Below are positions 3,122-49,289 of a DNA stretch of 64,000 bases, piece by piece. The stretch is from the NCBI RefSeq assembly GCF_003018255.1, contig NZ_CP027440.1. One strand, given 5' to 3'. Each line of letters begins with the position of its first letter. Position 1 is the first letter of the stretch. The notes under the pieces were generated by a model, which worked only from the letters and a program-made list of their open reading frames with translations, was not told where the DNA came from and did not search any database. The stretch comes from Escherichia coli. Its GTDB lineage: Bacteria > Pseudomonadota > Gammaproteobacteria > Enterobacterales > Enterobacteriaceae. A program made the position numbers and the translations under genes.

Positions 3122-6134
<3,013 letters not shown>

Positions 6135-38175: not shown

Positions 38176-40608
38176 ATGAGTGTGATTGCGCAGGCAGGGG
38201 CGAAAGGTCGTCAACTGCATAAATTTGGTGGCAGTAGTCTGGCTGATGTGAAGTGTTATTTGCGTGTCGCGGGCATTATGGCGGAGTACTCTCAGCCTGA
38301 CGATATGATGGTGGTTTCCGCCGCCGGTAGCACCACTAACCAGTTGATTAACTGGTTGAAACTAAGCCAGACCGATCGTCTCTCTGCGCATCAGGTTCAA
38401 CAAACGCTACGTCGTTATCAGTGCGATCTGATTAGCGGCCTGCTACCCGCCGAAGAAGCCGATAGCCTCATTAGCGCCTTTGTCAGCGATCTGGAACGCC
38501 TCGCGGCGCTGCTCGACAGCGGTATTAATGATGCGGTGTATGCGGAAGTGGTGGGCCACGGTGAAGTGTGGTCGGCGCGCCTGATGTCTGCGGTACTTAA
38601 TCAACAAGGGCTGCCAGCGGCCTGGCTTGATGCCCGCGAGTTTTTACGCGCTGAACGCGCCGCGCAGCCGCAGGTTGATGAAGGGCTTTCTTACCCGTTG
38701 CTGCAACAGCTACTGGTACAACATCCGGGCAAACGTCTGGTGGTGACCGGGTTTATCAGCCGTAACAACGCCGGTGAAACGGTGCTGCTGGGGCGTAACG
38801 GTTCCGACTATTCCGCGACACAAATCGGTGCGCTGGCGGGTGTTTCCCGCGTAACCATCTGGAGCGATGTCGCCGGGGTATATAGTGCCGACCCGCGTAA
38901 AGTGAAAGATGCCTGTCTGCTGCCATTGCTGCGTCTTGATGAAGCCAGCGAACTGGCGCGTCTGGCGGCCCCCGTTCTTCACGCCCGTACTTTACAGCCA
39001 GTATCCGGTAGTGAAATCGACCTGCAGCTGCGCTGTAGCTACACGCCGGATCAAGGTTCCACGCGCATTGAACGCGTGCTGGCCTCCGGTACTGGTGCGC
39101 GTATTGTCACCAGCCACGATGATGTCTGTTTGATTGAGTTTCAGGTGCCCGCCAGTCAGGATTTTAAACTGGCGCATAAAGAGATCGACCAAATCCTGAA
39201 ACGTGCTCAGGTGCGCCCACTGGCAGTTGGCGTGCATAACGATCGCCAGTTGCTGCAATTTTGCTACACCTCGGAAGTGGCCGACAGTGCGCTGAAAATC
39301 CTCGACGAAGCAGGATTACCCGGCGAACTGCGTCTGCGTCAGGGGCTGGCGCTGGTGGCGATGGTTGGGGCGGGCGTCACCCGTAACCCGCTGCATTGCC
39401 ACCGCTTCTGGCAGCAACTGAAAGGCCAGCCGGTCGAGTTTACCTGGCAGTCCGATGACGGCATCAGCCTGGTGGCAGTACTGCGCACCGGCCCGACCGA
39501 AAGCCTGATTCAGGGGCTGCATCAGTCCGTCTTCCGCGCAGAAAAACGCATCGGCCTGGTATTGTTCGGTAAGGGAAATATCGGTTCCCGCTGGCTGGAA
39601 CTGTTCGCCCGTGAGCAGAGCACGCTCTCGGCGCGCACCGGCTTTGAATTTGTGCTGGCAGGCGTGGTGGACAGCCGTCGCAGCCTGTTGAGCTATGACG
39701 GGCTGGACGCCAGCCGTGCGCTAGCCTTCTTTAATGATGAAGCCGTCGAACAGGATGAAGAGTCGCTATTCCTGTGGATGCGTGCCCATCCGTATGATGA
39801 TTTAGTTGTGCTGGACGTTACTGCCAGCCAGCAGCTTGCTGATCAGTATCTCGATTTCGCCAGCCACGGTTTCCACGTCATCAGTGCCAACAAACTGGCG
39901 GGAGCGAGCGACAGCAATAAATATCGCCAGATCCACGACGCGTTCGAAAAAACCGGGCGTCACTGGCTGTACAACGCCACCGTCGGCGCAGGTTTGCCGA
40001 TCAACCATACCGTGCGCGATCTGATCGACAGCGGCGACACTATTTTGTCGATCAGCGGGATCTTCTCCGGCACGCTCTCCTGGCTGTTCCTGCAATTCGA
40101 CGGTAGCGTGCCGTTTACTGAACTGGTGGATCAGGCGTGGCAGCAGGGCTTAACTGAACCTGACCCGCGTGATGACCTCTCCGGCAAAGATGTGATGCGC
40201 AAGCTGGTGATTCTGGCGCGTGAAGCGGGTTACAACATTGAACCGGACCAGGTGCGTGTTGAATCACTGGTGCCAACCCATTGCGAAGGTGGAAGCATCG
40301 ACCATTTCTTTGAAAATGGCGATGAACTTAATGAGCAGATGGTACAACGGTTGGAAGCGGCCCGTGAAATGGGGCTGGTGTTGCGCTACGTGGCGCGTTT
40401 CGATGCCAACGGCAAAGCGCGAGTAGGCGTGGAAGCGGTGCGAGAAGACCATCCGCTGGCATCACTACTACCGTGCGATAACGTCTTTGCCATCGAAAGC
40501 CGCTGGTATCGCGATAATCCGTTGGTGATCCGCGGGCCAGGTGCAGGGCGCGACGTCACCGCCGGGGCGATTCAGTCGGATATTAACCGTCTGGCGCAGT
40601 TGTTGTAG
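38176..40608 (+). CDS. metL: bifunctional aspartokinase II / homoserine dehydrogenase II
   Basis: 810-aa translation MSVIAQAGAKGRQLHKFGGSSLADVKCYLRVAGIMAEYS. Confidence 0.97.
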   Translation: MSVIAQAGAKGRQLHKFGGSSLADVKCYLRVAGIMAEYSQPDDMMVVSAAGSTTNQLINWLKLSQTDRLSAHQVQQTLRRYQCDLISGLLPAEEADSLISAFVSDLERLAALLDSGINDAVYAEVVGHGEVWSARLMSAVLNQQGLPAAWLDAREFLRAERAAQPQVDEGLSYPLLQQLLVQHPGKRLVVTGFISRNNAGETVLLGRNGSDYSATQIGALAGVSRVTIWSDVAGVYSADPRKVKDACLLPLLRLDEASELARLAAPVLHARTLQPVSGSEIDLQLRCSYTPDQGSTRIERVLASGTGARIVTSHDDVCLIEFQVPASQDFKLAHKEIDQILKRAQVRPLAVGVHNDRQLLQFCYTSEVADSALKILDEAGLPGELRLRQGLALVAMVGAGVTRNPLHCHRFWQQLKGQPVEFTWQSDDGISLVAVLRTGPTESLIQGLHQSVFRAEKRIGLVLFGKGNIGSRWLELFAREQSTLSARTGFEFVLAGVVDSRRSLLSYDGLDASRALAFFNDEAVEQDEESLFLWMRAHPYDDLVVLDVTASQQLADQYLDFASHGFHVISANKLAGASDSNKYRQIHDAFEKTGRHWLYNATVGAGLPINHTVRDLIDSGDTILSISGIFSGTLSWLFLQFDGSVPFTELVDQAWQQGLTEPDPRDDLSGKDVMRKLVILAREAGYNIEPDQVRVESLVPTHCEGGSIDHFFENGDELNEQMVQRLEAAREMGLVLRYVARFDANGKARVGVEAVREDHPLASLLPCDNVFAIESRWYRDNPLVIRGPGAGRDVTAGAIQSDINRLAQLL

Positions 40609-40619
40609 TGATTATTGAA

Positions 40620-40650
40620 CAAAAGCTGGCAGTTGCCAGCTTTTGTTGTC
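40620..40650 (+). terminator. metL intrinsic terminator
   Basis: caaaagctggca-gt-tgccagcttttg perfect 12-bp stem followed by a T-rich tail. Confidence 0.75.
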
Positions 40651-40824
40651 ACCTCTAAACCACCTCCTGCGGAGGTGGTGATTGATTGTCATTTTGCCTT
40701 TGGTCAGTGCCCCGGTAATAAGGGGGCTTTTGTGTTGAGCGATGAATTCACAGTGTGAATGGTGAAGTTATTTATGACAATTACAAAATGGCATTAAGTA
40801 AAAATATCTAAAACATCACCTGAT

Positions 40825-41685
40825 TTAAAATTGATAACCAATAGTAGTATAGGTTCCCCATCCTGTGTTTTTTAATTCAAATGGACCATCTCCGAAGTTA
40901 ACTTTCTCCCCAGCATTCCATTGTCCACCGTTGTGAAAATAACGTAGTGTAAATGCAAATTTCCAGTGTTCATATAGCAGGGAAAGGATATGGCTTGAAG
41001 CAATAGCATTACTGGTTCGTTTATTATTGTGTGATTTGTCCGCAAGATCGGAGCCAAAATCAAAGTTAGTAAAACTATTGTATACCAATCGCCCTCCGAA
41101 TAAATGGGTAAGAGGAATGCTATATTTTATTTTGAATCGATATCCGTCCCATTCATTTTCATTAGCGGCACCATAGTTTTGCCACTGATACTTGGCGTAT
41201 ATATTGGCAGAAAGCTTAATTGGTAGACCCGTGTCGATATCTGTACCAAGCCCCATATACCATGTACTTTGCCGGGATGACTGGTTGTCACCCATATCAT
41301 AGACATAGTTGTTTGCAATGAACCATTCTTTAAAAGGGCCGAACGCAAGATTTAATCCGGTCAATTTGTCAATGGAAAACCGAGGTTCTATTTCCGTAAA
41401 TAGTGGTGAGCCCTCATCCCAGATCCCAACATCATAGTGACTGCCGACGCCAAAGAATTTTGGTAGATCAACATAACCATAAAAATCAAACCAGTCTTTT
41501 CTTCCTGCTACAGTATATTCAGGGTAGAGGTCGTTAGTCAGTCTTGGGCCAAAGCGAGAGTCTGTGCGACCAATGACATTCAAGCTTTGATGTAACCAGC
41601 TTTCATCAATTTTAATTTCCTGAGCGTTTCCAATGCAAGGTATTAATAGAATGGATAAAGCTATCCCGTGCTTTTTTATACACAT
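40825..41685 (-). CDS. Tsx-family outer-membrane nucleoside-specific channel (Tsx paralog)
   Basis: 286 aa with a signal peptide; shares long blocks with E. coli Tsx as I recall it ([81 protein letters not shown]) and ends in an aromatic residue (GYQF). Confidence 0.85.
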
Positions 41686-41724
41686 AAATATATCTCATTA
41701 TTTATTGTTGATTTAGAGAAAAAT

Positions 41725-41761
41725 AATGCCATTCAGTGAATGAATGGCATTATAATTTTTT
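41725..41761 (-). terminator. intrinsic terminator after nucleotidase paralog A (bidirectional-looking)
   Basis: aatgccattca-gtgaa-tgaatggcatt 11-bp perfect stem flanked by A/T runs on both sides. Confidence 0.6.
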
Positions 41762-41763
41762 TA

Positions 41764-43389
41764 TTATTTGCTAACGTCCACCCGCATTTCATTTACCTGT
41801 GCAGGCGTAATCTTGTGGCCTTTCTTCAAATAATCGATCACGACATCGGACATGTTATTTCCGGCGCGGACCTGAACATTTTTCCCTTCTTTGAATGCCA
41901 GAAAACCATCGCCCCCCAGTGCAAGGAAAGTCGTTGTTGCAACATGGTAAATATTCGTATCAACGATCTCTTCACCATTAATTTTAAAAGATACTATGCG
42001 CTGACCTACTGGTTTCTTCGGGGTATAGCGCATTTCTGCGCCTTTTGACATTTGCAGGATGCCATTGGTAAGCGATGCCCCGTGTTCCAGTAGGTTACGC
42101 AGATCCTTACCGCTGAGATCCATTTCAGTAAGTTCATTCTTGAAGGGGAATGTACTGGTAATGTCGCCAAAGGTAATCGTGCCTGCATTTATATCCGCAC
42201 GTAAGCTGCCGGAGTTTATCAATGCAATCTGTGCAGTCGGTGCAGCGACAAGCATTGCATCGGTAAACAGGTTGCCAAGTTGCGATGACTCACCGTAGGC
42301 ACGAGTTAATGCAATCGATGATTCACCGACTGGTTGGCGTACAAGATCCGCCAGTTTTTTATTCCAGCCATTGATAACTTTTTGTGTGGTTGGATCAGGT
42401 ATCCATTCATCGGCATAAACCGTTTTCAGCTCAAAGCTCTTCACTTTATGAGTACGAGCTGTAGGGTTGACATCAAGGATTAATTTACCAATATCGATAC
42501 CGCCACTGTCAGTCGAAAGGATTAAGGTGTTGCCGACTTTGATTGGTTCTGGCGTTCCGACGTGGGCATGCCCGGTAATCAGAATATCCAATCCTTTCAC
42601 CTTGCTTGCGGTTTGAATATCTTTATCAAGAGCGCGTCTAACATCTGTATTGCCAATGCTGGACTGACGCGCCGGTACGCCTTCATGAACCAGCGCCACG
42701 GTGAGGTCAACCTTATCACGTAACTCATCGATATAATGCTGCAAATACTTCACTTCATCACGTGCTTCAATCCCCTGATTCTTGAGGGTCGCGGAAGATT
42801 TATCAAATCGGTTATTATTGTCATTATCGAGTCCCTGGAGAGAGAGCTCCGAGACCGTGTCATTAAATGCAAATACGCCGTGTAGCCCAACAATACCAAT
42901 CTTGATGCCATCTTTTTCCAGGATGGTGTAGGGCTTGTTCCAGAAGGGTTTCTCACTCTCTTTATGATAAACATTGGCTAATAAAACAGGGAAATTCGCT
43001 TTGCTTAATTGTCGGAGGGCATTATCCCAGCCATGGTCAAACTCATGATTACCGATTGATACTGCGTCAAAAGGCATGGTATTCATAATATCAATTATTG
43101 CTTCGCCCTTTGTCAGGCTACTGATATATGGCCCGGTGAAATAGTCTCCAGCATCAAAATAAAAGGTGGCTTTATTTTTGGCTTTCTCTTGTTTTACTAA
43201 CGTGGATATATTGGCAAAGCCACCAATGTCGCGTTTTCCGTCTGCGACATACGGTACTTTATAGGAATCCACATGAGCGTGAAGATCATTGGTATAAATA
43301 ATCGTGACATCCTGCGCCATAACTGAGGTCGAAAAAATAGTCAGCAATGTTGCGGCAAATAAAGTACGCTGCGCTGTTTTCATTCGCAT
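41764..43389 (-). CDS. UshA/CpdB-family periplasmic metallophosphoesterase / 5'-nucleotidase, paralog A
   Basis: 541 aa; signal peptide ending VMA|QD; calcineurin-like motifs [27 protein letters not shown]; C-terminal 5'-nucleotidase-type region with GGDGF; alternative ATG at 43383. Confidence 0.85.
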   Translation of the reverse strand: MRMKTAQRTLFAATLLTIFSTSVMAQDVTIIYTNDLHAHVDSYKVPYVADGKRDIGGFANISTLVKQEKAKNKATFYFDAGDYFTGPYISSLTKGEAIIDIMNTMPFDAVSIGNHEFDHGWDNALRQLSKANFPVLLANVYHKESEKPFWNKPYTILEKDGIKIGIVGLHGVFAFNDTVSELSLQGLDNDNNNRFDKSSATLKNQGIEARDEVKYLQHYIDELRDKVDLTVALVHEGVPARQSSIGNTDVRRALDKDIQTASKVKGLDILITGHAHVGTPEPIKVGNTLILSTDSGGIDIGKLILDVNPTARTHKVKSFELKTVYADEWIPDPTTQKVINGWNKKLADLVRQPVGESSIALTRAYGESSQLGNLFTDAMLVAAPTAQIALINSGSLRADINAGTITFGDITSTFPFKNELTEMDLSGKDLRNLLEHGASLTNGILQMSKGAEMRYTPKKPVGQRIVSFKINGEEIVDTNIYHVATTTFLALGGDGFLAFKEGKNVQVRAGNNMSDVVIDYLKKGHKITPAQVNEMRVDVSK

Positions 43390-43423
43390 TCCTTGTTAAA
43401 TAAATTGACTGATAAATGAGATT

Positions 43424-44977
43424 TTATTTGGCGACGTCCATGACTCGTTTAGTTAAGTCTGGGGTGACAGGTTTATGATTTTTGAAATAATCGATGATAG
43501 ATTCCGCCGAGGTTGTTCCCGGTATCGTCTTCACATTTTTTCCATTCAAAAATGCTTCAAAACCGTCACCACCACTGGCACAAAAGGAGTGCGTGGCAAT
43601 ACGATATGTTTGATTATCTTCCACGGGTTTGCCGTTAATGGTGAAAGAGATTAACCGTTGGTTGAGGGGTTTTTTGCTGTCATAGACAACCGCAACACTT
43701 TTAGAAACTTGTAACACACCGTTAGTTAGATTGGTTGCATGCGTCATCAATGATTTGAGATCGCGGCCCGTCAAATCCATCTCGATGAGGTCATTATTAA
43801 AGGGGAATGTGCTAATAACATCTCCCAGTGTGATATCGCCTTTAGGAAAATCAGCTCGAATCCCACCGCTATTTTGAAATCCGGCAACGGCATCAGGTGT
43901 TTTTTCCATCATTGCATCAAGAATAAGGTTGCCGGTAGAAGAGGAACTACCATACTCACGTGTTAAAACTACGGGAGAATGGCCGACAACTTCCTGTGTT
44001 ATTTTGTTAAGCTTTGCACTCCATTTATCAATAGTATTTTGAACGATGGTGTCAGGTTTAAATTGATCTGCAAAGATGGTGATTAACTCACCATTATAAC
44101 TGTCAATTTTCTTCGTTTTCGGATTGTAATCAAGCACAAGTTTTCCGATGTTGGTGCCGTATGCATCGGTAGATACAATTAATGTGTTATTAACTTTTAT
44201 TGGTTGCGGTGTTCCGACATGTGCGTGACCGGTAATTAAGACATCAACACCATTCACTTTTTTAGCTGTCTCAATATCTGCCTGTAGTAGCCGCTCCACA
44301 TCTTTACTACCAAAGCTTGATTGACGCGCCGGGACACCTTCGTGAATTAGCAAAACGGTAATGTCGACTTTACCTTTTAATTCTGCAAGTGCTTTATTTA
44401 AATATTTAATTTCGTCTCTGGCTTCTACGCCTTCACGTGCTTTTGCCGCGACTGTATCATAGAAAGCGAATGCGCCATGCAATCCAATCACACCAATCTT
44501 TAAACCATCTTTTTCGATAATGGTCCACGGATGATCCCAAACTGGTTTATTCGTATCGGTGTAGTAGATATTTCCCAGCAGAATGGGGAATTTTGCTTTT
44601 GATAACTGAGACACCATATTGGGCACACCGTGATCGAACTCGTGATTACCAACAGACACCGCATCAAAGGGCATAGTGTTCATGATATCAATAATAGCCT
44701 CACCTTTGGTCAGGGTGCTGATATACGGCCCGGTAAAATAGTCGCCTGCATCAAAGAAAAACACATCTTTGCTTTTTTTCTTCGCTTCATTAACGATGCC
44801 TGAAATATTAGCCATACCACCTATAAGTCTGTTCTTATCAACAGCGATGATTTTTGCTGGATTGACATGTGCGTGAATGTCATTCGTATAATAAATAGTA
44901 ACGTCCTGAGCTAGAACACTGTGAGAAAATATCACGCCGAATATGACTGATAATGTTGTAAATACAGTTTTCATCAT
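43424..44977 (-). CDS. UshA/CpdB-family periplasmic metallophosphoesterase / 5'-nucleotidase, paralog B
   Basis: 517 aa; signal peptide ending VLA|QD; same motif set (YTNDIHAH, FDAGDYF, GNHEFD, ITGHAH, GGDGF); 34-bp gap to paralog A suggests co-transcription. Confidence 0.85.
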   Translation of the reverse strand: MMKTVFTTLSVIFGVIFSHSVLAQDVTIYYTNDIHAHVNPAKIIAVDKNRLIGGMANISGIVNEAKKKSKDVFFFDAGDYFTGPYISTLTKGEAIIDIMNTMPFDAVSVGNHEFDHGVPNMVSQLSKAKFPILLGNIYYTDTNKPVWDHPWTIIEKDGLKIGVIGLHGAFAFYDTVAAKAREGVEARDEIKYLNKALAELKGKVDITVLLIHEGVPARQSSFGSKDVERLLQADIETAKKVNGVDVLITGHAHVGTPQPIKVNNTLIVSTDAYGTNIGKLVLDYNPKTKKIDSYNGELITIFADQFKPDTIVQNTIDKWSAKLNKITQEVVGHSPVVLTREYGSSSSTGNLILDAMMEKTPDAVAGFQNSGGIRADFPKGDITLGDVISTFPFNNDLIEMDLTGRDLKSLMTHATNLTNGVLQVSKSVAVVYDSKKPLNQRLISFTINGKPVEDNQTYRIATHSFCASGGDGFEAFLNGKNVKTIPGTTSAESIIDYFKNHKPVTPDLTKRVMDVAK

Positions 44978-45206
44978 CCCTCCTGGATAGGGTGTGTTAC
45001 ATTTGTTGAATTATTTAAATAAAAGACACATCGTGTCTTATTTTATGTAAGCATAGTTCAGAAAAGTATTGTGTGATCTTAGTAACAAATAATGTTATTA
45101 ATTAAACATTGACCATGATTATATTTCACGGTCATACATTTATATATTTAATTAAATGAAAGGTAGTGTTCTCTCTTAATTTATGGTCGTTTGTCGAGTG
45201 TATTGA

Positions 45207-46331
45207 CTAACAAGATGGAGTGAGCGATTCATTGTATTTTAACGCCAGTGAGGTCAGCATTTGTGTTACGCGACCTGCGGATAATAACGCGCTTTGGGTA
45301 AAGTCGTGTTGGTCTGTCAGCCATGTGATAAAACAACGACTGGTTGCCAGAGAAACATTTGCGCCCCTTTCTAAGCAGGCTCCCGTGAGTAGGCAGACCA
45401 TCTTGCAGTTATTCCCCTGCTCCCAGCGCTGCCACTGATTTTGCCACCAACCATGGTATGTCGTTCCCTTAAAATGCCAGGGCGTATCAGCGTTACTGTC
45501 ACTGATTTCTTCTTCTACGAACCAAAGTTCACCTTGTTGTTGGCGGAACTGATCTGCCCAGGCTGTAATAATTGCGCCTCTTAGAAAACATTCGTGTGAA
45601 ATAATATGCGTTTTGACATCTGGATAGCGGATTTTCAGTATTCTGAAATGCCCGTGTGCCGTGATAACCGGGCGTAGTATGGCTCCCTTACCGTTGCGCT
45701 TGAGTACAGCACTGCCATACTGAATTTCATCGAACTGGCTCCGGCGCAAGAATTGCGCTTCACGCATATCTACCTTCTGCACGATATCGCGATGGTGCAT
45801 AGTTGGTTCTGTGTTGCCCTTGTAACTGTACCGCAGACTGTCTCCTGTCTGATGTTGCGTATAATTCGTGGAGAGATGAAGAATGTTGCCACGAGTGGCG
45901 TCAAGACTGACTAAAACATACAGTTTTTGTACTGCGCTGGCCCCTTGAAAGGGTATGAACAGTTGAACGGTTTCAATGGCCTGGGGATGCGTAATTTCTT
46001 TCTGATACTGTTTAGGCGTCCAGACTTTTTTGCAGTTACGGCATTGAATGCGTTGCGAACCCTGTGGATTGTGACCATAACAAATCATGTCTGTGCCATA
46101 ACATACCGGGCAGAAATGACCCTTCTCCGAGGCCCACGTAGATAAGTGAACTGACAACCAGTCACGAAATTGTTGCTCGTCAAACAACGGCGGGTAACTG
46201 CCACATGCCCGACAGTGCAGTGCCGGATAACCCAGTTTATAGTCTGGCCAACTGTAATCTTCCGATGAGGCCAATCCCAAATTTCGGCAACCGAACGTTT
46301 TACAGGCATTAATCGTAAACAGAGTCGACAT
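45207..46331 (-). CDS. cysteine-rich cytoplasmic protein with transposase-type zinc ribbon (possible IS1/IS1595-like transposase relic or regulator)
   Basis: 374-aa ORF with no signal peptide; Cys pairs at C10/C15 and C40/C43, then CPVCYG...GSQRIQCRNCKKVWTP resembling the CPxC...QRYxCxxCxKxW zinc ribbon of IS1 InsA / IS1595 transposases; assignment is by motif only. Confidence 0.55.
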   Translation of the reverse strand: MSTLFTINACKTFGCRNLGLASSEDYSWPDYKLGYPALHCRACGSYPPLFDEQQFRDWLSVHLSTWASEKGHFCPVCYGTDMICYGHNPQGSQRIQCRNCKKVWTPKQYQKEITHPQAIETVQLFIPFQGASAVQKLYVLVSLDATRGNILHLSTNYTQHQTGDSLRYSYKGNTEPTMHHRDIVQKVDMREAQFLRRSQFDEIQYGSAVLKRNGKGAILRPVITAHGHFRILKIRYPDVKTHIISHECFLRGAIITAWADQFRQQQGELWFVEEEISDSNADTPWHFKGTTYHGWWQNQWQRWEQGNNCKMVCLLTGACLERGANVSLATSRCFITWLTDQHDFTQSALLSAGRVTQMLTSLALKYNESLTPSC

Positions 46332-46463
46332 ATATCACCAACGATTTCACAAGGTCGTTGATTTTGTCCGGCAACTATCCCCTGCAGATGTGATTACTCT
46401 CACATAAATAAGTCTTTCAGAACGTAATGTAGCAATCCTTTATCTCACTGAAAGGGATTGTTT

Positions 46464-48017
46464 ATGAAAATTAAAATACTTGCTGCGGGTATCGCATTAA
46501 CACTGCCGTTCTGGGCTTGCGCTAAAGATGTCACTATTATTTATACCAACGACCTCCATGCGCATGTAGAACCTTATAAAGTGCCGTGGATCGCTGACGG
46601 TAAACGGGATATTGGCGGCTGGGCAAATATCACTACGCTGGTTAAGCAAGAAAAAGCAAAAAATAAAGCGACATGGTTTTTTGATGCGGGCGACTATTTT
46701 ACCGGGCCATATATCAGCAGCCTGACCAAAGGTAAGGCTATTATCGATATTATGAATACTATGCCGTTTGATGCCGTCACGATAGGCAACCATGAATTTG
46801 ACCACGGCTGGGACAACACATTATTACAGTTGAGTCAGGCAAAATTCCCGATTGTGCAGGGCAATGTTTTTTATCAGAACAGCAGTAAATCATTCTGGGA
46901 TAAGCCCTATACCATCATCGAAAAAGACGGTGTGAAAATAGGCGTTATAGGTTTGCACGGTGTATTTGCCTTTAATGACACAGTATCTGCTGCCACGCGA
47001 GTGGGTATTGAGGCGCGTGATGAAATTAAATGGCTACAACGTTATATCGATGAACTTAAAGGCAAGGTTGATTTGACCGTCGCCCTGATCCATGAAGGTG
47101 TTCCGGCCCGCCAGTCCAGTATGGGAGGCACAGATGTGCGTCGCGCGCTGGATAAAGATATTCAGACGGCAAGTCAGGTGAAAGGGCTGGATATTTTGAT
47201 CACCGGACATGCACATGTGGGTACGCCGGAACCGATTAAAGTCGGCAATACGCTCATCCTCTCCACTGACAGCGGCGGGATTGATGTGGGCAAACTGGTT
47301 CTCGACTACAAAGAGAAGCCGCATAATTTTACGGTGAAAAACTTCGAGCTTAAAACCATTTACGCTGACGAGTGGAAGCCCGATCCACAAACGAAACAGG
47401 TGATCGACGGCTGGAATAAAAAGCTTGATGAAGTGGTGCAACAAACGGTGGCGCAATCGCCGGTTGAATTAAAACGTGCCTATGGTGAATCGGCTTCCCT
47501 CGGGAACCTGGCGGCTGACGCTTTACTGGTAGCGGCGGGTAAAAACACCCAATTGGCGTTAACCAACTCTGGCGGCATTCGCAATGAGATCCCCGCAGGG
47601 GCGATCACGATGGGCGGCGTCATCAGTACGTTCCCGTTCCCCAACGAACTGGTGACGATGGAACTCACGGGTAAACAATTACGCAGTCTGATGGAACACG
47701 GCGCAAGTTTAAGCAATGGCGTTTTACAGGTATCGAAAGGCCTGGAAATGAAGTACGACAGCAGCAAGCCGGTTGGTCAGCGGGTAATCACACTGACTCT
47801 GAATGGCAAACCCATTGAAGATGCGACGGTTTATCACATTGCTACTCAGAGTTTCCTTGCTGATGGTGGAGATGGTTTTACCGCCTTTACCGAAGGGAAA
47901 GCGCGTAACACAACGGGCGGTTATTACGTTTATCACGCGGTGGTTGATTACTTCAAAGCGGGCAACACCATTACGGATGAACAGCTCAACGGTATGCGCG
48001 TGAAGGATATCAAATAA
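46464..48017 (+). CDS. UshA/CpdB-family periplasmic metallophosphoesterase / 5'-nucleotidase, paralog C
   Basis: 517 aa from the ATG at 46464 (RBS aaggga; the ORF-track ORF starts at a TTG at 46458); signal peptide ending ACA|KD; motifs [32 protein letters not shown]; closest by eye to paralog A. Confidence 0.85.
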
Positions 48018-48073
48018 AAGTGCGCACTGAATTGACTCAACTGTTTGTTACCCGTTGATTGCGCAGATCCTGT

Positions 48074-48103
48074 ATTCGGCCTACGCGAGGGCGCAGGCCG
48101 AAT
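48074..48103 (+). terminator. stem-loop downstream of paralog C (possible terminator)
   Basis: attcggcct-N12-aggccgaat 9-bp inverted repeat; no strong T-run, so weak. Confidence 0.35.
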
Positions 48104-48326
48104 CAGATGCCTTAGCATCACCATCCGGTGGCAGGACGTTGTTTTTCGAATTAGCCCAGGTGTCGCTGTGTTGTCAGAATATGAGTCAAAACGTGCGAGG
48201 TGGATTGTGCTATAGAGAAATCTTTTATCGCCTCTAATTAAGATGAGTTTTTTTCATCTTCCCTGATTTTTCCTCACCATCATTGGTTATTTTTCGGTTG
48301 ACGCCCTTCGGCTTTTCCTTCATCTT

Positions 48327-48358
48327 TACATCTGGACGTCTAAACGGATAGATGTGCA
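48327..48358. promoter_or_regulatory. met boxes (MetJ operator) of the metF promoter
   Basis: acatctggacgtctaaacggatagatgtgcac contains repeated AGACGTCT-like octamers just upstream of metF. Confidence 0.6.
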
Positions 48359-48395
48359 CAACACAACATATAACGATAAGCGATTGATGAGGTAA

Positions 48396-49289
<894 letters not shown>

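What the first reader, a model, noticed from the sequence alone, without database searches (positions are those of the whole stretch)
45207..46331. Cysteine-rich protein with a transposase-type zinc ribbon at the centre of the block
The N-terminal ~100 residues contain two Cys4 clusters. The second (CPVCYG-x15-QRIQCRNCKKVW) closely resembles the zinc ribbon at the N-terminus of IS1 InsA and IS1595-family transposases. The remaining ~270 residues have no motif I can assign. The gene is divergent from nucleotidase C across a 126-bp region containing an inverted repeat (caacga-N10-tcgttg, 46339-46360), and it sits upstream of the B-A-tsx gene string. It could be a domesticated transposase acting as a local regulator, or the relic of the element that delivered the block.
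Basis: inference. Interest (0 to 1): 0.6.

Follow-up and report, generated by a model that had tools for sequence, protein, structure and literature searches.

The report
Immobile IS1-derived protein beside nucleotidase genes
This uncharacterised E. coli gene encodes a former IS1-type transposase that has lost its cutting residues and its mobility, and it stays under selection next to nucleotide-scavenging genes in many gut and marine bacteria, most likely as their local regulator.

Summary
The 374-aa ORF (45207-46331, minus strand) has two Cys4 clusters that are conserved in its homologues. The second cluster is an IS1 InsA-type zinc ribbon: the match is weak for this protein alone but significant for the family. 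The previously unassigned C-terminal 260 residues are predicted with high confidence (pLDDT 94.6) to form an RNase H-like DDE transposase/integrase fold, but two of the three catalytic acids are missing in all 51 aligned family members.

The gene is not an insertion sequence and not a relic. It is present once per genome in 1841 of 5426 complete E. coli genomes, has no terminal inverted repeats, and evolves under purifying selection (dN/dS 0.07-0.15). In 35 of 36 enterobacterial loci it is paired divergently with the same 5'-nucleotidase.

Distant relatives (20-33% identical) retain an InsA-like helix-turn-helix. They sit next to 5'-nucleotidase, nupC-deo, purine nucleoside phosphorylase, acid phosphatase/phosphodiesterase or sulfatase genes.

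The shared intergenic region carries a perfect CRP-type site and an 11-nt block invariant across 18 sequences from about 12 genera.

Best reading: a domesticated IS1-like transposase that acts as a local transcription regulator. The domestication is shown; the regulatory role is inferred. I found no published description of this family.

The parts
45207..46331 (-). Gene for the 374-aa Cys-rich protein, a domesticated IS1-like transposase derivative
   Evidence: The ORF is and the RefSeq CDS. It is present in 1841 of 5426 E. coli genomes, one copy each. dN/dS is 0.07-0.15. The AF2 model has pLDDT 94.6.
46191..46310 (-). Zinc module 1 (residues 8-47; C10, C15, C40, C43; motif NxCKxxGCxNxG...HCxxCG)
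   Evidence: The cysteines are invariant or nearly invariant. No library family matches this module.
46014..46115 (-). Zinc ribbon 2 (residues 73-106; C74, C77, C97, C100), of the IS1 InsA type
   Evidence: Supported.
45546..45986 (-). RNase H-like DDE-transposase fold core (residues 116-262), with the catalytic triad degenerate. T121 occupies the beta1 position, R220/P221 follow beta4, and only E247 is a conserved acid.
45216..45536 (-). Family-specific C-terminal part: a four-stranded Trp-rich sheet (GWWxxxW, residues 268-316) and a helical bundle (320-370, conserved N367)
   Evidence: Supported.
46337..46347 (-). AAATCGTTGGT, an 11-nt block invariant in 18 orthologous intergenic regions. 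It is a candidate operator or 5'-UTR element.
   Evidence: Its distance to the start codon differs in Klebsiella, so it is more than a ribosome-binding site.
46339..46360 (.). Inverted repeat CAACGA-N10-TCGTTG next to the start of the gene
   Evidence: The right arm is invariant and the left arm varies. The sister subfamily has CGACTGA-N5-TCAGTTG at the same place.
46389..46404 (.). Perfect CRP-type site TGTGATTACTCTCACA in the middle of the divergent promoter region
   Evidence: It is the only perfect match in the 64-kb window. It is recognisable in all 18 orthologous regions, and the right half TCACA is invariant. CRP binding itself is inferred.
46414..46454 (.). Inverted repeat CTTTCAG-N27-CTGAAAG. 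It includes the conserved block CTTTCAGAACGTAA and brackets the likely -10 element and ribosome-binding site of nucleotidase C. Its binding partner is unknown.
46464..48017 (+). 5'-nucleotidase C (UshA-like, with a signal peptide), the invariable divergent partner
   Evidence: 35 of 36 loci. It occurs in 1843 E. coli genomes, against 1841 for the Cys-rich gene.
45110..45134 (-). Terminator-like hairpin 73 nt after the stop codon of the Cys-rich gene
45072..45087 (.). Second CRP-like site (TGTGATCTTAGTAACA, one mismatch) upstream of nucleotidase B
40825..44977 (-). The tsx-like channel gene and 5'-nucleotidases A and B, the optional part of the block downstream of the Cys-rich gene
   Evidence: Nucleotidase B is present in only 658 genomes, close to the 666 that carry the window-type allele of the Cys-rich gene.

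Best explanation
The gene encodes a member of an undescribed gammaproteobacterial protein family that descends from an IS1-type transposase. The ancestral layout was a zinc ribbon, a helix-turn-helix and an RNase H-like DDE domain. The family has lost two of the three catalytic acids, all terminal repeats and all mobility, and it is kept by purifying selection as a single-copy host gene.

Its most likely job is local DNA-binding regulation of the nucleotide and nucleoside scavenging genes beside it. In this model the two zinc modules bind the conserved element at its own start (AAATCGTTGGT within the CAACGA-N10-TCGTTG repeat), and in most relatives an InsA-like helix-turn-helix contributes as well. 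This would resemble IS1 InsA, which binds the IS1 ends and represses its own promoter. The dead transposase core would supply multimerisation and perhaps an effector pocket built from the conserved R197, Y205, H228, H246 and E247. A central CRP site would supply catabolite control to both divergent promoters.

Shown: the transposase ancestry, the loss of the catalytic residues, the immobility, the selection, the conserved gene linkage and the conserved intergenic blocks. Inferred: DNA binding, the identity of the operator, effector sensing and the direction of regulation.
For: Ancestry:
- The family profile matches the IS1 InsAB' zinc ribbon and helix-turn-helix.
- Distant members pass the NCBIfam IS1/IS1595 zinc-domain cut-off and align to positions 1-130 of the IS1 transposase model.
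- Pfam Zn_ribbon_InsA matches 8 of 51 members at E <= 1e-3.
- The segment LYVLVSLDATRGN fits the usual beta2-turn Asp motif of DDE folds.

Dead enzyme:
- No acidic residue is conserved on beta1 or after beta4 in any of 51 members.

Not mobile, not decaying:
- There is one copy per genome in 1841 E. coli genomes.
- No flanking inverted repeats were found.
- There are essentially no true plasmid copies.
- The gene occupies the same metL-metF slot in Escherichia, Citrobacter, Klebsiella, Kosakonia, Phytobacter, Salmonella arizonae and others.
- dN/dS is 0.07-0.15.

Regulator-like context:
- The gene is divergent from nucleotidase C in 35 of 36 loci, and the two genes co-occur in E. coli.
- Other subfamilies lie next to nupC plus PNP, nupC-deoCABD, 5'-nucleotidase (6 of 6 Vibrio-type loci), porin plus AphA-like phosphatase plus phosphodiesterase, deoD-like PNP, or Tsx-like channel plus sulfatase plus maturase.
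- These partners are periplasmic, outer-membrane, inner-membrane and cytoplasmic. That spread fits regulation better than a physical or enzymatic partnership.

Cis elements:
- Three blocks are invariant or nearly invariant in 18 intergenic regions.
- A palindrome of matching design, with both arms changed together, sits in the sister subfamily.
- A second AF2 model (P0146, pLDDT 90.9) shows three helices between the zinc ribbon and the core, where the family profile aligns to the InsA helix-turn-helix.
Against: - No experiment or expression data bear on function.
- The E. coli clade has lost the helix-turn-helix segment that most relatives keep. IS1 InsA needs that segment, as well as the zinc finger, for DNA binding (my recollection of the IS1 literature).
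- The left arm of the inverted repeat is poorly conserved.
- The invariant 11-mer was not found in the promoter regions of distant subfamilies.
- Vibrio-type loci carry PurR/CytR-like and CRP-like sites that could regulate the operon without this protein.
- The catalytic positions were mapped from secondary structure, not from a 3D superposition.
- The C-terminal domain shows no sequence similarity to IS1 InsB. Its IS1 origin, as opposed to another DDE family, therefore rests on the N-terminus and on fold ranking.
Confidence: 0.55

Rival explanations
1. The protein is a domesticated transposase derivative with a non-transcriptional job. It could bind nucleic acids or nucleotides, or act as an enzyme, using the conserved His/His/Glu/Arg/Tyr cluster in the old active-site region. 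Examples would be a nuclease or phosphodiesterase that feeds nucleotide salvage, or an RNA-binding translational regulator acting on the 5'-UTR hairpin.
For: R197, H228, H246 and E247 are invariant or nearly invariant in every subfamily whatever the neighbouring genes. That pattern looks more like a catalytic or metal site than an effector pocket tuned to different ligands. In three subfamilies the gene sits directly downstream of, and is probably co-transcribed with, the enzyme gene. The inverted repeat could fold in RNA. The E. coli clade lacks the helix-turn-helix.
Against: The partner proteins occupy four different cell compartments, and the linkage extends to sulfatases. This is hard to reconcile with one shared substrate. 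The zinc ribbon plus helix-turn-helix module is the DNA-binding module of IS1 InsA. There is no match to any enzyme family.
Confidence: 0.28
2. The C-terminal domain is not transposase-derived. It would be an RNase H-like fold of some other origin, fused to a generic transposase-like zinc ribbon.
Confidence: 0.08
3. The gene is a decaying relic of the mobile element that delivered the tsx/nucleotidase block.
For: The block is a variable region that is absent from K-12. The protein is transposase-like.
Against: dN/dS is 0.07-0.15. Full-length matches cover at least 80% of the gene in 1838 of 1841 genomes. The gene plus nucleotidase C pair exists without the tsx-A-B genes in 1163 E. coli genomes and in many other genera. 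All eight cysteines and the core motifs are conserved.
Confidence: 0.03
4. The gene is an ordinary, active insertion sequence of the IS1 or IS1595 family.
For: There are weak zinc-ribbon hits to IS1/IS1595 models. Some database entries for relatives are labelled 'IS1 family transposase'.
Against: There is a single copy per genome. No terminal inverted repeats or target duplications were found. The locus is fixed across genera. The catalytic aspartates are absent. The score against the IS1 transposase model is 22 bits against a cut-off of 100. There is no insA/insB frameshift organisation.
Confidence: 0.01

Closest known systems
IS1 transposase InsAB' and its repressor form InsA (E. coli IS1)
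   Same: It has an N-terminal CxxC...CxxC zinc ribbon, followed in most family members by a helix-turn-helix and then an RNase H-like DDE-fold core. InsA is a DNA-binding autorepressor that acts at the element's own promoter (established IS1 biology). That is the working model proposed here.
   Different: - It has an extra N-terminal Cys4 module and a Trp-rich sheet plus helical C-terminal extension.
- It is a single ORF without a frameshift.
- The catalytic Asp residues are missing.
- It has no terminal repeats.
- It is single-copy and syntenic across genera.
- The E. coli clade has lost the helix-turn-helix.
- The core has no detectable sequence similarity to InsB.
Eukaryotic transposase-derived transcription factors, such as plant FHY3/FAR1 from Mutator-like elements (my knowledge), and metazoan examples (PMC10027918, listed; title and abstract only)
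   Same: A whole transposase is retained: an N-terminal zinc-finger DNA-binding module plus a catalytically inert DDE core. It is immobile, under purifying selection and controls host genes.
   Different: Those factors are eukaryotic, derive from other transposon superfamilies and have been shown experimentally to be transcription factors. Here the host is a bacterium, the source is IS1-like, and the regulatory role is only inferred.
TldR, TnpB-derived RNA-guided transcription factors in bacteria (PMC10705468, listed; title and abstract only)
   Same: A bacterial transposon-encoded protein has been exapted into a host gene regulator after losing nuclease activity.
   Different: TnpB is a RuvC-type RNA-guided nuclease, not the DDE transposase itself. 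No guide RNA is evident here: there are no Rfam hits in 40500-48500.
TnpA-REP (RAYT), called 'the first prokaryotic domesticated transposase' in PMC8266576 (abstract)
   Same: It is a single-copy, vertically inherited bacterial transposase derivative.
   Different: RAYTs belong to the HUH (IS200/IS605) class, remain catalytically active on REP sequences, and are not linked to metabolic operons.
CRP/CytR-controlled nucleoside scavenging regulon of enterobacteria (tsx, deo, nupC, udp, cdd; established knowledge)
   Same: The same kinds of target genes are involved. A perfect CRP-type site sits in the promoter region.
   Different: CytR is a LacI-family repressor. The protein here is unrelated to it, and I could not recognise a convincing CytR operator in the enterobacterial spacer.

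Membership tests
IS1 family transposase (InsAB') | N-terminal InsA-type zinc ribbon | tested here: met
   The match is weak for this protein: NF050000 gives 23.2 bits against a cut-off of 28, and PF03811 gives E 0.0072. It is significant for the family: hhalign gives 96.4% probability, four distant members score 28.7-38.2 bits, and the family HMM scores 38 bits against InsAB'.
IS1 family transposase (InsAB') | Helix-turn-helix after the zinc ribbon | tested here: not met
   The segment is absent from this protein and its close orthologues: only about 14 residues link the ribbon to beta1. It is present in distant subfamilies.
IS1 family transposase (InsAB') | RNase H-like catalytic fold | tested here: met
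IS1 family transposase (InsAB') | Conserved D-D-E catalytic triad | tested here: not met
   Beta1 positions 119-126 have at most 18% D/E, and T121 is T or S in 48 of 51 members. After beta4 come R220 and P221. Only E247 is a conserved acid. The mapping uses secondary structure, not superposition.
IS1 family transposase (InsAB') | Terminal inverted repeats and target-site duplication | tested here: not met
   No inverted repeat brackets the gene in 44700-46700 or in 40500-48500.
IS1 family transposase (InsAB') | Multiple copies, variable locations and plasmid carriage | tested here: not met
   There is exactly one place per genome in 1841 genomes. The locus is fixed across genera. Only 14 PLSDB records match, all typed non-mobilizable, and several are megabase-sized replicons.
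IS1 family transposase (InsAB') | Score above the NCBIfam curated cut-off for NF033558 (100 bits) | tested here: not met
   The score is 22.4 bits, and only residues 74-135 match.
IS1595 family transposase | Zn_ribbon_IS1595 plus DDE_Tnp_IS1595 domains | tested here: not met
   PF12760 reaches only E 3.6e-3 at best, and matches 5 of 51 members at E <= 0.1. There is no hit to any DDE_Tnp family.
Local transcription factor (domesticated-transposase type) | Conserved adjacency to, or divergent transcription from, candidate target operons across lineages | tested here: met
   This holds for 35 of 36 enterobacterial loci, 6 of 6 Vibrio-type loci and eight further subfamily contexts.
Local transcription factor (domesticated-transposase type) | Conserved operator-like element in the shared promoter region | tested here: inconclusive
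   There is an invariant 11-mer and a partly conserved inverted repeat. The sister subfamily has an analogous palindrome. No common motif was found in distant subfamilies. Alternative readings as a promoter or 5'-UTR element are not excluded.
Local transcription factor (domesticated-transposase type) | Sequence-specific DNA binding and an effect on transcription | not testable with these tools
   This needs EMSA or ChIP, and reporter or RNA-seq experiments.
CRP-dependent promoter | TGTGA-N6-TCACA site at a class II distance from the -10 element | tested here: inconclusive
   The site at 46389-46404 is perfect and conserved. The -10 assignments (TAATGT for nucleotidase C, CAAAAT for the Cys-rich gene) and the roughly -41 spacing are my reading of the sequence. 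The simple promoter scan did not call them.

The most novel reading that the evidence does not exclude
This is the first recognised family of bacterial metabolic transcription factors built from an entire DDE (IS1-type) transposase. The zinc-ribbon (and helix-turn-helix) end-binding module has become an operator-binding module. The dead active-site pocket (T121, P221, H228, H246, E247, R197, Y205) has become a small-molecule or metal sensor. The family has radiated within Enterobacterales and Vibrionales to control nucleotide-, nucleoside- and sulfate-ester-scavenging loci.
Probability: 0.35. Interest if true: 0.8.

Novelty: new variant of a known kind. Interest (0 to 1): 0.68.

Why it matters
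Exaptation of whole DDE transposases into host regulators is well known in plants and animals, but I found almost nothing comparable documented for bacteria. A 2022 review of mobile-element recruitment in prokaryotes does not mention DDE or IS1 at all.

This family is present in a third of complete E. coli genomes, including ExPEC strains and EPEC E2348/69. It also occurs in Klebsiella, Citrobacter, Enterobacter, Salmonella arizonae and many vibrios. The enterobacterial proteins listed are all labelled 'cytoplasmic protein' or 'hypothetical protein'; relatives elsewhere, mostly in vibrios, are sometimes labelled 'IS1 family transposase'.

Showing what it does would have three consequences:
- It would give a bacterial model for how a transposase becomes a host factor.
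- It would assign a regulator, or another function, to a nucleotide-scavenging island that was recently described in ExPEC without mention of this gene (PMC12928451).
- It would correct the annotation of several hundred protein clusters (248 hits among the 90%-identity clusters, 123 among the 50%-identity representatives).

It is directly testable in E. coli with standard genetics.

Tried and rejected
- **Sequence libraries.** Pfam, NCBIfam, PHROGs, PADLOC and PDB sequence searches gave nothing for the C-terminal 260 residues. Only zinc-finger noise appeared.
- **Similarity to InsB.** hhalign and hmmsearch of the family profile against the IS1 InsB catalytic part found no similarity. I did not build an IS1-family profile, because the homologue search lists only the 120 best hits and these would all be near-identical IS1 copies.
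- **Terminal repeats.** The search for terminal inverted repeats or direct repeats around the gene and around the whole block found none that bracket either.
- **Genome-collection scans.** The enterobacterial alignment worked. The Vibrio-group alignment on metagenomes gave only 5 loci.
- **Shared operator.** A search for the invariant 11-mer in the promoter regions of distant subfamilies found nothing consistent. The recurrent ATATCGTTGGT hits lie inside nucleotidase coding sequence, at the YTND motif.
- **RNA families.** An Rfam scan of 40500-48500 at E <= 1 gave no match.
- **RNA hairpin reading of the inverted repeat.** There is no compensatory covariation within the main clade: the right arm is invariant and the left arm drifts.
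- **Mobile relatives.** A search for still-mobile relatives among the weakest family hits found only truncated family members or unrelated zinc-ribbon proteins.
- **Literature.** Seven searches found no description of the family.
- **Failed look-ups.** Two context look-ups returned nothing on record.
Full report
**Setting**

The window is E. coli chromosome. A 7.8-kb block lies between metL (38176-40608) and metF (48399-49289). It contains a tsx-like channel gene, 5'-nucleotidases A and B, the Cys-rich ORF (45207-46331, minus strand) and, divergent from it, 5'-nucleotidase C. K-12 has none of these genes and carries a REP-like sequence instead. A 2026 paper describes the block in ExPEC strains as 'GR 31 metL..metF'. 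It lists the Tsx and three UshA-like ORFs but does not mention the Cys-rich gene (PMC12928451).

**Observation check**

The ORF and both Cys4 clusters are real. C10, C15, C40, C43 and C74, C77, C97, C100 are invariant in close orthologues. Seven of the eight are at least 90% conserved across 51 homologues down to about 20% identity; C74 falls below that threshold.

For this protein alone the similarity to the IS1 zinc ribbon is sub-threshold. NF050000 gives 23.2 bits against a cut-off of 28, and Pfam InsA gives E 0.0072. At family level it is solid:
- Distant members score 28.7-38.2 bits and align to positions 1-130 of the IS1 transposase model.
- Eight of 51 members hit Zn_ribbon_InsA at E <= 1e-3.
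- hhalign of the family against IS1 InsAB' (taken from K-12) gives 96.4% probability over the zinc ribbon plus helix-turn-helix.
- The family HMM scores 38 bits on the same segment.

The inverted repeat at 46339-46360 exists.

**The C-terminal domain**

No sequence library recognises residues 110-374. With a 51-sequence alignment, AlphaFold2 gives a very confident model (pLDDT 94.6, pTM 0.93). Its strand and helix order (three strands, helix, strand, helix, strand, helix) is that of an RNase H-like fold.

The segment LYVLVSLDATRGNILHL fits the beta2-turn-beta3 motif with a non-catalytic Asp that is common in DDE folds (my knowledge of IS3, IS1 and integrase cores). This fixes beta1 as residues 118-128.

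Across all 51 members there is no conserved acid on beta1 (T121 is T or S in 48 of 51) and none after beta4 (R220, P221). Only E247 is always D or E. Two of the three catalytic residues are therefore missing family-wide. This mapping comes from secondary structure and was not checked by superposition.

Instead, the family conserves R197, D201, Y205, P221, H228, H246, E247, R251, a GWWxxxW sheet and N367.

A second model, for a 28%-identical relative (P0146; pLDDT 90.9), has the same architecture plus three helices between the ribbon and the core. This is where the family profile aligns to the InsA helix-turn-helix. The E. coli clade has lost that segment.

**Not an insertion sequence, not a relic**

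- The gene occurs in 1841 of 5426 complete E. coli genomes, always once.
- Nothing brackets it as terminal repeats.
- Plasmid matches are essentially mislabelled chromosomes or chromids.
- dN/dS against ten orthologues is 0.07-0.15 wherever dS is not saturated.
- In 36 loci from Enterobacteriaceae and Rahnella, 35 have the gene divergent from an orthologue of nucleotidase C. The spacer length is constant in most of them.
- The locus usually lies between metL and metF: in Escherichia, Citrobacter, Klebsiella, Kosakonia, Phytobacter, Pseudocitrobacter, Superficieibacter and Salmonella arizonae.

In E. coli, nucleotidase C and the Cys-rich gene co-occur (1843 against 1841 genomes). The tsx-A-B genes accompany only the window-type allele: 658 genomes carry nucleotidase B, and 666 carry that allele. 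The other 1163 genomes hold just the pair. The pair is therefore most simply the older part, and the idea that this gene delivered the block fails.

**Family-wide context**

The family is small and confined to Gammaproteobacteria, with 123 hits (E <= 0.001) among the 1.84 billion cluster representatives at 50% identity. I split it into about ten subfamilies and looked at their neighbours.

| Subfamily (example) | Neighbouring genes |
|---|---|
| P0123-like | divergent 5'-nucleotidase |
| P0144 | divergent 5'-nucleotidase |
| Vibrio-type group | directly downstream of a 5'-nucleotidase, 6 of 6 loci |
| P0140 | divergent nupC plus nucleoside phosphorylase |
| P0146 | divergent nupC-deoC-deoA-deoB-deoD, with TatD and a Bmp-type ABC transporter alongside |
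| P0143 | divergent porin plus class B acid phosphatase plus class II phosphodiesterase |
| P0203 and V. campbellii | directly downstream of a deoD-like phosphorylase |
| Two subfamilies, including an E. coli paralogue between mokC and nhaA | Tsx-like channel, sulfatase and, in three of four loci, a radical-SAM maturase |

The partners are periplasmic hydrolases, outer-membrane channels, inner-membrane carriers and cytoplasmic enzymes. What they share is a scavenging locus rather than a substrate or a compartment. In the enterobacterial island this gene is the only one that is neither an enzyme nor a channel. This is the pattern expected of a local regulator.

**Cis elements**

Eighteen orthologous spacers from about 12 genera align with three invariant or nearly invariant blocks:
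- CTTTCAGAACGTAA (46414-46427), which is part of an inverted repeat CTTTCAG-N27-CTGAAAG. This repeat brackets the likely -10 element and ribosome-binding site of nucleotidase C.
- A CRP-type site, TGTGATTACTCTCACA (46389-46404), which is the only perfect match in the 64-kb window.

By my reading, the CRP site lies about 41 bp upstream of plausible start points in both directions. The simple promoter scan did not call these promoters.

The 11-mer keeps its sequence while its distance to the start codon changes in Klebsiella, so it is more than a ribosome-binding site. The left arm of the repeat drifts, and I saw no compensatory changes within the clade.

The sister subfamily (about 40% identical, with the helix-turn-helix retained) has the same layout with a different palindrome: CGACTGA-N5-TCAGTTG, in place of CAACGA-N10-TCGTTG. 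Both arms have changed together. This points to a functional palindrome at the start of the gene, as either a DNA operator or an RNA stem. A second CRP-like site lies upstream of nucleotidase B, and a terminator-like hairpin follows the Cys-rich gene.

**Mechanism**

I propose that the protein works as IS1 InsA does at the IS1 ends, by sequence-specific binding at its own promoter. Here, however, the site is a host operator in a CRP-dependent divergent promoter. The dead DDE core would serve for multimerisation and perhaps as a ligand or metal pocket.

The transposase ancestry, the loss of the catalytic residues, the immobility, the selection, the linkage and the conserved blocks are shown. 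DNA binding, operator identity and effector sensing are inferred.

The main rival keeps the domestication but assigns a non-transcriptional role. The invariant His/His/Glu/Arg/Tyr set is the same in nucleotide-linked and sulfatase-linked paralogues, which is what one would expect of a catalytic or structural metal site. The E. coli clade also lacks the helix-turn-helix.

**Comparison and novelty**

The protein fails most of the defining features of an IS1 or IS1595 transposase: the triad, the terminal repeats, multiple copies, the model cut-off and, in this clade, the helix-turn-helix. It should not be filed as one, even though several database entries for relatives are labelled that way.

It resembles eukaryotic transposase-derived transcription factors in design. 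It resembles TldR and RAYT only in being a bacterial exaptation. Seven literature searches, and a review of prokaryotic exaptations that contains no mention of DDE or IS1, turned up no description of this family.

I rate it a new variant of a known kind, the domesticated transposase. This one is bacterial, DDE-type and linked to a metabolic locus. Interest is about 0.68: the origin is well supported and the function is directly testable, but it is still only inferred.

Noticed in passing
window 40825-48017; K-12 locus L062: The whole block is a presence/absence polymorphism in E. coli. K-12 has a 348-bp metL-metF spacer with a REP-like sequence instead. A 2026 paper names the block GR 31 in ExPEC strains (BEN2908, UTI89, RS218) but does not mention the Cys-rich gene.
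   Followed up: partly
window 45207-46457 compared with L002 and L015: Within E. coli the window allele of the Cys-rich gene differs from the 'short-locus' allele by dS of about 1.0 (77% aa identity). The adjacent nucleotidase C is 95-99% identical at the DNA level. Divergence starts inside the spacer near the CRP site, which points to a recombination breakpoint there. Across genera, nucleotidase C (88-98% aa identity) is far more conserved than the Cys-rich protein (58-78%).
   Followed up: partly
L002 7808-7844: In short-type loci the 3' end of the Cys-rich gene overlaps the 3' end of metL by 37 bp, in convergent orientation.
   Followed up: no
window 46352-46360 (minus strand) and 46547-46555 (plus strand): The 9-mer CAACGACCT of the left arm of the repeat recurs inside nucleotidase C, in the codons for the conserved YTNDL motif. 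The invariant right arm, read on the other strand (ACCAACGA), also matches these codons. This could be coincidence or a third binding site.
   Followed up: no
window 45023-45039: The hairpin AAGACAC-ATC-GTGTCTT has T-rich runs on both sides and looks like a bidirectional terminator. It lies between the CRP-like site (45072-45087) and the nucleotidase B start, so it is a possible leader or attenuator element. It has no Rfam match.
   Followed up: partly
window 46414-46454: The conserved inverted repeat CTTTCAG-N27-CTGAAAG brackets the likely -10 element and ribosome-binding site of nucleotidase C in all genera examined. I could not assign it to a known regulator; CytR, PurR and NagC consensus sequences recalled from memory do not fit well.
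   Followed up: partly
L010 about 4230-4300; L055, L059 upstream of the nucleotidase: Vibrio-type nucleotidase operons that include the Cys-rich homologue carry a GCAAACGTTTGC palindrome (PurR/CytR-like) next to a CRP-like site.
   Followed up: no
L060 4597-8245 (E. coli CP099174.1, between mokC and nhaA): Some E. coli strains carry a 25%-identical paralogue of 414 aa downstream of a Tsx-like channel and a sulfatase. Related subfamilies sit beside sulfatase plus radical-SAM maturase genes (L011, L053).
   Followed up: partly
window 46458-46466: RefSeq starts nucleotidase C at ATG 46464, not at TTG 46458. It likewise starts nucleotidases A and B a few codons later than the longest ORFs. The divergent spacer is therefore 132 bp rather than 126 bp.
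   Followed up: yes
hit H35, NZ_CP074576.1 4163256-4165591: One chicken E. coli isolate has an IS1A element inserted in nucleotidase C.
   Followed up: no
L015+L023, L018+L043, L033+L046: Some Escherichia and Citrobacter genomes carry two copies of the pair. One lies at metL-metF. The other is an Enterobacter-type locus with nucleotidase C, nucleotidase B (absent from L043), tsx and nucleotidase A in one direction, divergent from the Cys-rich gene.
   Followed up: partly
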